DNA of 64,000 nt from assembly GCA_051362555.1 (NCBI GenBank), contig CM120641.1, positions 46,444,401 to 46,508,400 on the forward strand, written 5' to 3'. The translations under genes were made by a program, and so were the position numbers. Each line of letters begins with the position of its first letter. Position 1 is the first letter of the stretch. Positions 53,701-56,700 of this stretch are shown in pieces. Under the pieces are notes generated by a model. The model ran no database searches and was not told where the DNA came from. It saw only the letters and a list, made by a program, of their open reading frames with translations. The DNA comes from Lingula anatina. Taxonomy: Eukaryota > Animalia > Brachiopoda.

Positions 53701-56700
53701 GAGGCTCAACAAGGTGAGATATTGTGTACTGTGATAATAACAACAACTTGGAGATATTGGTCACGGAGTTAATTTGTTTGCATATTAGATATGGTGTAGA
53801 AAATAACTTTTAAATATTTAAAAAAGAATTGCATTGGTCACTTTGATGAAAGTGAAAGCATGTCACATTTGATGTAGGTGTGGTGATTCACACAAAAAAT
53901 CATTTTGATAGAATGTTCTGCTTGGTATATTTTAAAGTTTTATTTAAAGGCCATATTTGAACAGGAATTTGTGGTGAATCCTGGAAAGTTGATCTCATTG
54001 AATCATGAATATTGTAGCAGTTTTTTATGCCATATTTTTCCTTTGTAGTACAACCATACTTTTGATTATTGAATAGATTAAATTTTGTTATAATTGTTTT
54101 TGGTACTCCTTTTTTTCTGTGTTATTCTTGATTTTAGTGTTGTATTTACTTTCAACATAATCATGACACCATTTCATAAAAGGGAAAACTTGATACTTGC
54201 ATATTGCCTGTCCAAACCAGTCGACCATACAAGGATACATACATAAGCGATGGATACATATTATTTCTTTGCTTTATGGGGATTTTTAAAAGTGAGATGC
54301 ATTTCGGTTTTTATTCATTCACCACAATTTTGCTTCAATTTGCCATTATTTTCAACTGATCCACCTTCTCCCTGTACTCAGCTGTGAAATCTATCAAGAA
54401 GCAGCACCTGGTTGAGATCAGGGCTCTCCCTAACCCTCCCCCTGCCGTCAAGCTGGCCCTGGAGTCTGCCGCCACACTGCTGGGAGAGACGGACCTGGAC
54501 TGGAAGTCTATGCGTGGATTCATCACAAAGGATAATTTTATTCCTTCCATTGTCAGTTTTGAGGCTGAAGATATCAGGTAATTTATTTAGCTGCCGAGGG
54601 TTGTGGGTTTGTAGCGCTGCTGTTTATTACTAATCCAGGTTTTCCCTTGTGGTGTTTCAGGGTTTTTCTTTTGTGTTTATTTGTTGACATTTCTAACTCT
54701 ACTAACCAGGCGGTGAATTCCTTTTTTGCAGAGTTTTTGGAATGTTTGTATGCTGAGAAATCAAACTCTAACTACTGATATCCTTTGTGATTTTTTATTC
54801 AGGTTGTTCTAGGTAGCAGAGTGGTGCTTCTCTTTCATTCCTGTCATCAGATCTGACTGACAAACATAACTATGCTAGGGACTGTTTTCATAAAAGATGT
54901 TCAGACCAAAATTCAGTCTTAACTAAAAGACCAAAAATCTGCTGGATCTGTAGCCCTCTATGCAGGATAGATCAGCAGTAGTCAACTAAAATCAAATTAA
55001 GTCACTATTTGTAAAAACATTGGCCATGTCTTTCTTTTTTTTCTCTTACTGGACACAATATTGTATTGAACTGAGCTACTGCTATTCTGTCCTGGGTCCA
55101 AATGAACTAATATTTTGGTCCTAAAATTGAGACGAACTTTAGTCTGAAGTTCTTTTGTGGAGCTCGTCCCTGGACTAATAACTACTAACATATTCAGAAC
55201 CATGTACAGTATCTGCATGGATTGACTAACCTTCCTCTAGATGACTAGTACCACTTCCTAATATTTGTAGCTGTGAAATCCATCAAGAAGCAGAATTTGG
55301 TGGAAGTCCGTGCTTTAGTGAACCCGCCTTCTCCAGTGAAGCTGGCCCTGGAGGCGGTCTGCTCACTGCTAGGGATGGCAGAACTGAGCTGGAAAGCTAT
55401 CCGGGCTGTCATCATTAAGGAAAACTTTATTCCTTCCATTGTCAGCCTCAAAGCGGAGGAGGTCAGGTACTGTAGACTCCAGCTGGCTTCTCTCCTCTAA
55501 CCTGCCTCTGTGTGGAAGTGTGCCTACACAGAGGACGCATCCGGTTTATATACTAGCATACTGAAATGCTTTGATTTGCCTTGCCTTAACCAAGCTCATA
55601 ACCTTACAGTGGGACTTGTTCCATTATAGCCCATGTTTAGCCATGATGCTTGCTTGTTTGAGGACTTCCGAGTTGATATGACTGCATTAATACTTATTGA
55701 ATATTTCAGGCTTGGGGAATATATTTTTATGAAGAAATGAAGAGTTGCCTTTGCCTTCTTGTTAGGTATCTATTCTCTGCTTCTCTCTAATTTCCTTGGC
55801 ACATATTTATCTGCTGCGCCTACATATAAACTCATAATCTCATTGCCCTCATTACACTGCCTATAGCTGTGAAATCCATCAAGAAACAGCACCTGGTAGA
55901 GGTTCGTGCAATGGGCAGTCCACCTCCGATCCTCAAGATGGTCCTCGAATCCATCTGCATCCTCCTTGGGGAGTCTGCTCCTGACTGGAAATCCATACGA
56001 CAAATGATAATTAAGGACTCTTTCATCCAGAACATTGTCAGCTTTCAAGCTGAAAACATACCGTAAGTTTGGTGGCCCATCTTTAAGGAAACTGCTGCTG
56101 CTGCCACCTATGAATGTTATGTCAAACTGCAGCTGACGCCACCTATTGATGTTTTGTCAAACTGTACCTATAATTACCTGTTGCATGGCTTGCCAGTCAG
56201 TGTGGTCTCATGTGTAAATAACATCATGACCAGGCTTATCATAAACTTGGTTGCTCTTCCCTTTTGGGTCTTCTTTCTATTCAATTATGATGAAATAGCC
56301 ATTATAATAACCTTTCTAACACAATATGCTGACACCCCTCTCCTCTTCCTGATAAGCCCTGCACCATTTTGTACCAGTAATCATTGTTTTATTTTACTTT
56401 CAGGCATGACATTTTTGTTGGGTTAGGGTATAAAATGTATAGCTTTCCCAGTATAGCAATGTTGTAAGATGAATTTTTTCTTTTTTTTTCTTTTTATGTT
56501 TCTTCATTTTTATGGTTTTATTTCAGACACCACTCAAAAATACTACAGTATTCTTGAATGCATATTTCATGTTCATTGCTTGTAATATAACATGTCAGAT
56601 AAAAAATGTTCGTGTTCTAGAAAATGTCTGGTTTTACTAGTTTAACTTGTATTAGTTACTAGAAGTACTTGTACTTTTAAATGTAAAACTAAATATGGTC

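What the first reader, a model, noticed from the sequence alone, without database searches (positions are those of the whole stretch)
54382..56062. Three mutually exclusive exons swap the microtubule-binding domain of cytoplasmic dynein-1
Seen: between the constitutive stalk exon ending at 53713 (...[11 protein letters not shown]|) and the exon starting at 57072 (|[13 protein letters not shown]...RASLACGP) lie three paralogous exons. Each is exactly 196 nt, phase 1 to 2, with AG/GT ends, no stops and no indels. Hand-counted identity over 64 aa is A-B 41, A-C 41 and B-C 36, and I see no alignment between the flanking introns, so the duplication looks old and all copies look constrained. Because 196 mod 3 = 1, including zero, two or three exons frameshifts, and only exactly one gives a full motor. 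Established: this segment is the end of CC1 plus MTBD helices H1-H4, H1 and H3 contact tubulin, charged residues there tune affinity and processivity, and animals normally have one dynein-1 heavy chain with one MTBD. Differences cluster in the H1-H2 loop ([21 protein letters not shown]), the H2-H3 loop and H3. Net K+R-D-E charge is -1, +3 and +2. Inference: one gene makes three motors, and possibly heterodimers, with different track affinity or tubulin preference, analogous to arthropod muscle myosin mutually exclusive exons. Novelty caveat: I have an unverified recollection of a computational prediction of such a cluster in a limpet dynein gene, so the literature needs checking. I know of no functional description.
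Basis: partly seen in the sequence, partly recalled or inferred. Interest (0 to 1): 0.95.

Follow-up and report, generated by a model that had tools for sequence, protein, structure and literature searches.

The report
Dynein gene with three swappable feet
In this invertebrate, the gene for the transport motor dynein-1 carries three side-by-side versions of the exon for the front half of its microtubule-gripping foot; only the first was seen spliced into RNA, the other two are likely rarer alternatives, and the versions are predicted, but not shown, to grip microtubules differently.

Summary
Three 196-nt paralogous exons (A, B, C) encode helices H1-H4 of the dynein-1 microtubule-binding domain (human 3296-3359), and only one at a time keeps the frame. 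All three show purifying selection.

In four RNA runs only A was spliced (52 and 49 junction reads). B and C had no listed junction and, in the two deeper runs, at most 3-7% of A's depth. Three motors are therefore inferred, not shown.

A two-exon switch at this exon is old and widespread: 21 of 72 named species show two versions and none shows three. A similar Schistosoma dynein exon is predicted in PMC3228551, and this scan found the two-exon form before in other genomes.

New here are the third exon B, likely a later copy of A, and six Quaking-type ACUAAY motifs in the A-B intron (0.23 expected). The tubulin-contact residues I could map are identical in A, B and C; charge differs in loops. 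My searches found no functional study. Verdict: new variant of a known kind.

The parts
23792..64000 (+). Cytoplasmic dynein-1 heavy chain gene (runs off the window's end at about residue 4070 of 4670)
   Evidence: 73 tblastn segments from 23792 to 63786; 81-85% identical to spiralian DHC1
53560..53713 (+). Constitutive stalk (CC1) exon upstream of the cluster
   Evidence: RNA joints 53073/53559 and 53711/54380; spliced alignment
54382..54577 (+). Exon A, spiralian 'type 1' MTBD front half (net charge -1); the dominant spliced form
   Evidence: 52 upstream and 49 downstream junction reads; inside the 97/97 type-1 clade
54578..55270 (+). A-B intron with six ACUAAY motifs (54629, 54701, 55106, 55174, 55184, 55225) and one UGCAUG (55214); candidate STAR/Quaking control region, or branch-point-like sites
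   Evidence: binding inferred only
55271..55466 (+). Exon B, likely a later duplicate of A (net charge +3); splicing not shown
   Evidence: dN/dS 0.23 against A; sister to A at 94/80; B=A at 35 sites, B=C at 15
55867..56062 (+). Exon C, likely counterpart of the spiralian 'type 2' exon (net charge +2); splicing not shown
   Evidence: synonymous sites saturated against A and B, dN 0.26-0.32; outside the type-1 clade; type-2 score -17.8
57072..57189 (+). Constitutive downstream exon (rest of the MTBD, including the RASLACGP motif)
   Evidence: RNA joints 54573/57068 and 57187/57613

Best explanation
[quoted passage not shown] Shown: anatomy, frame exclusivity, selection on all three, splicing of A. 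Inferred: A and C descend from an old spiralian two-exon switch and B is a later copy of A. All three acceptors are weak, A's being the strongest. A STAR/Quaking-type protein on the ACUAAY cluster, which lies downstream of A and upstream of B, would favour A and block B; where it is absent, B or C would be chosen. Transcripts with no, two or three exons would stop early and probably be degraded. The more positive B and C feet would bind more tightly and run longer and slower than A.
For: Exact exon geometry and frame test. dN/dS 0.23 for A-B and saturated dS for A-C and B-C; neutral decay at 0.5 changes per site gave a mean of 24 and at most 39 of 64 identities in 2000 runs, against 41 seen. 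Equal-length isoforms that differ at this exon in 13 species, and both copies in one fused model in 8 more. Tandem copies with the same boundaries in 6 of 62 metagenome loci. Small depth on B and C with empty neighbouring intron bins: B in X7, C in X4. ACUAAY 6 seen against 0.23 expected, 0 on the other strand, 0 of 20,000 simulations reaching 6; QKI position rule in PMC9122611 and CUAAC repression of an acceptor in PMC3875643 (passages). In 8 of 8 spiralian pairs type 2 is more positive than type 1 by 1-3 charges (related species, not independent), as C is against A here. Charged residues remote from the interface change speed and run length (PMC4987762, passages).
Against: No junction into or out of B or C was listed in 4 runs (listing needs 3 reads from 2 starts). 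C's donor scores below all 64 other donors and its acceptor above only 3 (crude matrix). The ACUAAY cluster was noticed by eye before it was tested, is absent from the matching intron in all 6 two-copy loci, and equals the branch-point consensus. The mapped contact residues are identical in A, B and C. With 64 columns the AU test does not reject a species-specific origin of all three (p 0.175), and a position-weight score puts B slightly on the type-2 side (-7.0). No binding or motility data exist.
Confidence: 0.6

Rival explanations
1. All three exons are used, but the feet are close to equivalent. Selection only keeps each one foldable, and the cluster matters little or mainly regulates dynein amount through retained or unproductive splicing.
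For: Mapped contact residues are invariant. Many animals appear to manage with one version: 13 of 28 named species with two or more models, and metagenome loci with one copy between both flanking exons. In runs X1 and X2 the A-to-downstream interval carries sense-strand intronic depth of 2.1 and 3.2 while the upstream intron has 0, and retention would stop right after exon A.
Against: Two distinct types have been kept across molluscs, a nemertean and flatworms (97/97 clade), with the same charge direction in 8 of 8 pairs. A single MTBD change can give a process-specific defect (PMC10418259, passages).
Confidence: 0.2
2. This is the ordinary two-exon switch (A and C) plus a copy, B, that was once used but is now silent or nearly so.
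For: No B junction listed. B has the longest branch of the three (0.51), weak splice sites, and residues seen in 0-2 of 108 other variants at positions 16, 31, 35 and 39. No other species examined shows three versions.
Against: B keeps its frame, length, both splice sites and all mapped contact residues at dS of about 1.0 from A. It is predicted to fold like the native domain. About 560 bases of X7 reads lie in B's two bins, with empty bins on either side. A motif cluster sits directly upstream of it.
Confidence: 0.15
3. The extra copies are an assembly artefact (two haplotypes laid end to end).
For: No run was listed as holding the stretch by indexed words. The species is polymorphic in the RNA runs.
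Against: The copies are only 62-71% identical in DNA with unalignable introns, far beyond the allelic differences seen in reads. RNA reads from other samples cover the sequence between and within the copies. Tandem copies occur in unrelated assemblies.
Confidence: 0.02

Closest known systems
Mutually exclusive exon of Schistosoma mansoni DHC1 (PMC3228551; section 9 and passages read, two supplements searched, figure not visible)
   Same: Cytoplasmic dynein-1 heavy chain; an internal exon pair of identical length, strong homology and split codons at both ends. PMC5100056 (passages) calls it an alternative splice form of the motor domain.
   Different: Two exons, not three; a computational test case with no function given. 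The text does not name the domain, so that it is the same exon is probable but not confirmed.
RefSeq/GenBank dynein-1 isoforms of Tubulanus, Haliotis, Patella, Babylonia, Littorina, Mercenaria, Zootermopsis, Musca, Stomoxys and Centruroides
   Same: The same segment is swapped between isoforms; the spiralian type-1 (L at position 15, acidic-L-acidic-W loop) and type-2 versions match A and C.
   Different: Never more than two versions in 72 named species; automatic annotation with no description of the event.
Mammalian dynein-1 MTBD (PDB 6RZB, 3ERR, 3J1T; human 3296-3359)
   Same: Gap-free alignment, same predicted four helices, same contact residues (mouse K3298, K3299, R3337; human E3306).
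   Different: The solved structures show one version. A has a more acidic and B a less acidic H2-H3 loop; C has Pro at the 3' junction.
Arthropod muscle myosin heavy chain mutually exclusive exon clusters (as described in PMC3228551, section 9)
   Same: One motor gene, tandem paralogous exons for one structural element, one used per transcript.
   Different: There the tuning of motor properties is established; here it is only predicted, and it concerns the track-binding tip of a microtubule motor.
STAR/Quaking-controlled splicing switches (C. elegans unc-60 by ASD-2, PMC3875643; QKI position rule, PMC9122611; passages)
   Same: Clustered CUAAC/ACUAAY motifs near an acceptor and downstream of the favoured exon.
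   Different: No binding, knock-down or tissue data here; the motif cluster is not conserved in the two-copy loci examined.

Membership tests
Mutually exclusive exon cluster | Tandem homologous internal exons of about equal length | tested here: met
   196 nt each, 36-41 of 64 aa identical
Mutually exclusive exon cluster | Compatible splice sites and phases; exactly one exon restores the frame | tested here: met
Mutually exclusive exon cluster | Each exon is joined to both flanking constitutive exons in RNA | tested here: inconclusive
   Met for A (52 and 49 reads); no junction listed for B or C in 4 runs, where 3 reads would be reached with probability 0.01-0.27 at 3-6% usage
Mutually exclusive exon cluster | Exons are not included together and the cluster is not skipped | tested here: inconclusive
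   No A-B, A-C, B-C or skipping joint listed at the 3-read threshold; depth is low
Cytoplasmic dynein-1 MTBD (H1-H4 half) | Full-length, gap-free homology and helical fold | tested here: met
   phmmer E about 1e-19 to 1e-22 to dynein-1 chains; B model helices 5-12, 19-31, 39-46, 51-56, TM 0.89; Pfam gave no hit on the 63-aa pieces
Cytoplasmic dynein-1 MTBD (H1-H4 half) | Tubulin-contact residues retained | tested here: met
   Mouse K3298, K3299, R3337 and human E3306 (named) are identical in A, B and C
Cytoplasmic dynein-1 MTBD (H1-H4 half) | Binds microtubules and supports motility | not testable with these tools
   needs biochemistry
Spiralian type-1/type-2 DHC1 exon pair | A orthologous to type 1, C to type 2, in that order | tested here: inconclusive
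   A and B in the 97/97 type-1 clade, C outside but unresolved; same order in Batillaria, Macrostomum, L007 and L010; AU test does not reject alternatives (p 0.175)
Schistosoma DHC1 mutually exclusive exon | Same exon position | tested here: inconclusive
   Text gives only 'middle of the gene' and split codons; supplements have no hit; another flatworm, Macrostomum, has the pair at this exon
STAR/Quaking-regulated exon | Enriched, strand-specific ACUAAY motifs at regulatory positions | tested here: met
STAR/Quaking-regulated exon | Protein binding and a splicing change on loss of protein or motif | not testable with these tools
   needs CLIP, knock-down or a minigene

The most novel reading that the evidence does not exclude
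Animals have tuned dynein-1 at its foot since early spiralian evolution, with a less positive and a more positive microtubule-binding domain chosen by splicing. This lineage added a third, most positive foot under a Quaking-type switch, so one gene makes three motors of graded grip in different cell types, and mixed dimers where they overlap.
Probability: 0.3. Interest if true: 0.82.

Novelty: new variant of a known kind. Interest (0 to 1): 0.57.

Why it matters
How one dynein-1 heavy chain gene serves so many tasks is a standing question, usually answered with adaptors and accessory chains (abstracts of PMC7004958 and PMC1331979 in search listings). A splice switch in the microtubule-binding domain is a different answer, and it is present in annotations across bilaterians without a functional study in the library searched. 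This gene offers three natural variants with identical mapped contact residues and different loop charge (-1, +2, +3): a ready series for testing whether long-range electrostatics set run length and speed. It also offers a candidate cis-element for the choice.

Tried and rejected
No RNA holder was listed by indexed words; the runs used were raw-read runs with the same species label, tissues unknown. Four of the nine listed runs were examined, 6-25% of each. No whole genome is held for this window, and genomic DNA around named relatives was not obtained, so three-exon clusters in relatives are not excluded.

A search with exon B for proteins of 113-2000 aa found nothing (weak by the tool's own note). 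The first metagenome scan failed because the first codon was read as Met; the repeat worked.

Docking/selector RNA pairing: no convincing long inverted repeat; the best perfect one is 13 nt. Not supported, and not tested by covariation. B as an A/C chimaera from unequal crossing-over: breakpoint test p 0.17, not supported. Steric exclusion by a branch point close to A's donor: the nearest ACUAAU lies about 52-56 nt downstream, near the <50-nt limit in PMC5740500 (passages), so it is possible but not shown. Other duplicated exons in the gene: none; two overlaps were alignment run-ons.

An IQ-TREE run on 111 exons timed out; FastTree could not resolve whether arthropod, nematode and vertebrate pairs share an origin with the spiralian pair. 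Literature searches found no functional description; PMC2674883 and PMC5147784 (passages) had nothing on this exon. Subscription journals, figures and unseen supplements (for example of PMC5100056) may hold more.

Full report
What is there. The window holds most of a cytoplasmic dynein-1 heavy chain gene on the + strand, from 23792 to beyond the end. Trees of about 3500 constitutive residues place the organism among spiralians outside Mollusca: with the nemertean Tubulanus in 3 of 4 reconstructions, and with annelids when an annelid guided the reconstruction. No brachiopod or phoronid was in the set, so the phylum is open. Between the exon ending at 53713 and the one starting at 57072 lie three 196-nt exons, each with AG and GT ends, phase 1 to 2 and an open frame of 64 codons. 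They align without gaps to human DYNC1H1 3296-3359. A model of B gives four helices at pLDDT 86 and matches dynein-1 at TM 0.89. Only one exon keeps the frame; none, two or three give early stops.

Constraint and history. Identities are 41, 41 and 36 of 64 aa. dN/dS is 0.23 for A-B (dS about 1.0); synonymous sites are saturated for A-C and B-C, with dN 0.26 and 0.32. Neutral decay at 0.5 changes per site gave at most 39 identities in 2000 runs, below the 41 seen, so B was constrained for most of its history; a recent loss of use cannot be excluded. The introns do not align. In a 30-sequence tree, A and B are sisters (94/80) inside a 97/97 clade with 12 'type-1' exons of molluscs, a nemertean and flatworms, while C lies outside, unresolved. 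B equals A at 35 informative sites and C at 15 (p 0.007). Against this, AU tests do not reject an A+B+C, B+C or A+C clade (p about 0.175), and a type score puts B at -7.0 between A at +14.4 and C at -17.8. The likeliest history is an old A/C pair plus a later copy of A.

RNA. Four raw-read runs with the same species label, tissues unknown, were examined at 6-25% of their depth; 822 reads were laid. Upstream-to-A joints number 0, 13, 33 and 6, and A-to-downstream joints 5, 17, 27 and 0 (X1, X4, X7, X2). No joint involving B or C, none between the three exons and no skipping joint was listed; listing needs 3 reads from 2 starts. In X4 and X7, depth on B is at most 3% and 7% of A, and on C at most 7% and 3%. 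At 3-6% usage the chance of reaching the threshold is 0.01-0.27 per junction. So A is dominant in X4 and X7, and use of B and C is neither shown nor refuted. Of five read variants listed in exon A, four are synonymous and one is Lys to Arg. Unexplained: X1 and X2 (one study, poly(A), stranded) have sense-strand depth averaging 2.1 and 3.2 over purely intronic bins between A and the downstream exon, comparable to exon depth, while the intron before A and the other introns are empty. This suggests slow or detained removal of the segment holding B and C.

How widespread. I examined 146 selected long DHC1 models (from the 120 hits listed of 1518 and cluster members). After dropping 8 partial or chimaeric hits, one pooled unnamed label and one unnamed single, 21 of 72 named species show two versions of this segment and none shows three. 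In 13 species the versions are separate isoforms (Tubulanus, two Haliotis, two Patella, Babylonia, Littorina, Mercenaria, Zootermopsis, two Musca, Stomoxys, Centruroides). In 8 they are fused in one model (Batillaria, Macrostomum, Romanomermis, Trichinella, Trichuris, Nymphon, Spodoptera, Asbolus), as in a Coryphaenoides fragment. One version only was seen in the cnidarians, echinoderms, hemichordates and decapods sampled; 44 of the 72 species had a single model, so these are lower bounds. Among 62 metagenome loci, 6 (4 distinct) have two tandem copies and none has three, many being short; 56 of 64 complete copies have the same splice boundaries.

What differs between the feet. Residues named as tubulin contacts in the passages read (mouse K3298, K3299, R3337; human E3306) are the same in A, B and C. 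Of 64 positions, 32 differ: 2 of 8 in H1, 9 of 13 in H2, 5 of 7 in the H2-H3 loop, 4 of 8 in H3, 2 of 6 in H4 and the rest in other loops. The net charges of -1, +3 and +2 come from positions 35, 37, 39, 60 and 63, in the H2-H3 loop and after H4. In all 8 spiralian pairs type 2 is more positive than type 1 by 1-3; the pairs share ancestry, so this shows retention, not repeated selection. PMC4987762 (passages) reports that charged residues remote from the interface change speed and run length, so a graded grip is a reasonable prediction, not a result.

How the choice is probably made. Against 64 other introns of the gene, the acceptors of A, B and C outscore only 12, 7 and 3, and the donors 32, 12 and 0 (simple matrix). 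The A-B intron has six ACUAAY motifs in 693 nt: 0.23 expected, none on the other strand, none of 20,000 simulations reaching six, and ACUAA the top-ranked 5-mer; the 64 other introns hold 12 in 21,990 nt. ACUAAY is the Quaking/STAR element, which favours an exon from downstream and represses it from upstream (PMC9122611, PMC3875643; passages). That would favour A and block B, matching the reads. Caveats: I noticed the motif before testing it, it is also the branch-point consensus (recalled), and the matching intron of all 6 two-copy loci lacks it. Early stops would remove mis-spliced forms (inference; the same frame-shift route is listed in PMC5740500, passages).

What is known. PMC3228551 (section 9 read) predicts an equal-length exon pair with split codons in Schistosoma DHC1, and PMC5100056 (passages) cites it as a motor-domain splice form; neither text names the domain. 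Seven searches found no functional study or mention of three exons; the library lacks most subscription papers. Earlier notes of this scan report the two-exon form in other genomes; I treated them as leads and checked the fish and arthropod pairs in sequences.

Verdict. A real, constrained three-exon cluster. The switch itself is an old feature of many bilaterians, already visible in annotations and probably predicted once. The third exon and its motif cluster are new as far as I could see. Expression of B and C and any functional difference remain to be shown. Interest 0.57; new variant of a known kind.

Noticed in passing
window 54578-57071: Runs X1 and X2 show sense-strand poly(A) read depth across the introns between exon A and the downstream exon, but none in the intron before A or in neighbouring introns: possible detained intron.
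   Followed up: partly
window 53130-53576: The intron before the upstream exon holds decayed tandem copies (spacing 128, 131 and 72 nt) of its own acceptor plus the exon's first bases, 73-88% alike over 41 nt; no joint to the decoy acceptors was listed.
   Followed up: partly
window 54600-54820: Several branch-point-like motifs followed by AG in the first 250 nt after exon A; the acceptor at 54638 scores above 44 of 64 true acceptors. Possible decoy or recursive sites; no joint listed.
   Followed up: partly
window 54505: In run X7 most reads carry a Lys-to-Arg change at exon A codon 41, the equivalent of mouse K3334.
   Followed up: no
L012, L013, L015, L034 and insect models P0297, P0300: One of the two insect versions of the exon is one codon longer (199 nt), with an extra residue after H4.
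   Followed up: no
proteins P0280, P0282, P0288: In these nematodes the version that resembles spiralian type 1 comes second, not first, which hints at independent duplication or convergence.
   Followed up: partly
L016, L017, L036, L039, L050 and similar loci: Animal loci with the same exon boundaries but a single copy between both flanking exons, so some lineages lack or lost the switch.
   Followed up: partly
window 3053-6135 (+), 13788-17308 (-), 21743-22024 (-): Neighbouring genes: an fn3 plus PRY/SPRY protein, an IBR-domain (RBR-type) ligase with a 693-codon open stretch, and a V-SNARE head to head with the dynein gene. Likeness to TRIM9, RNF216 and VTI1B is recalled, not tested.
   Followed up: partly
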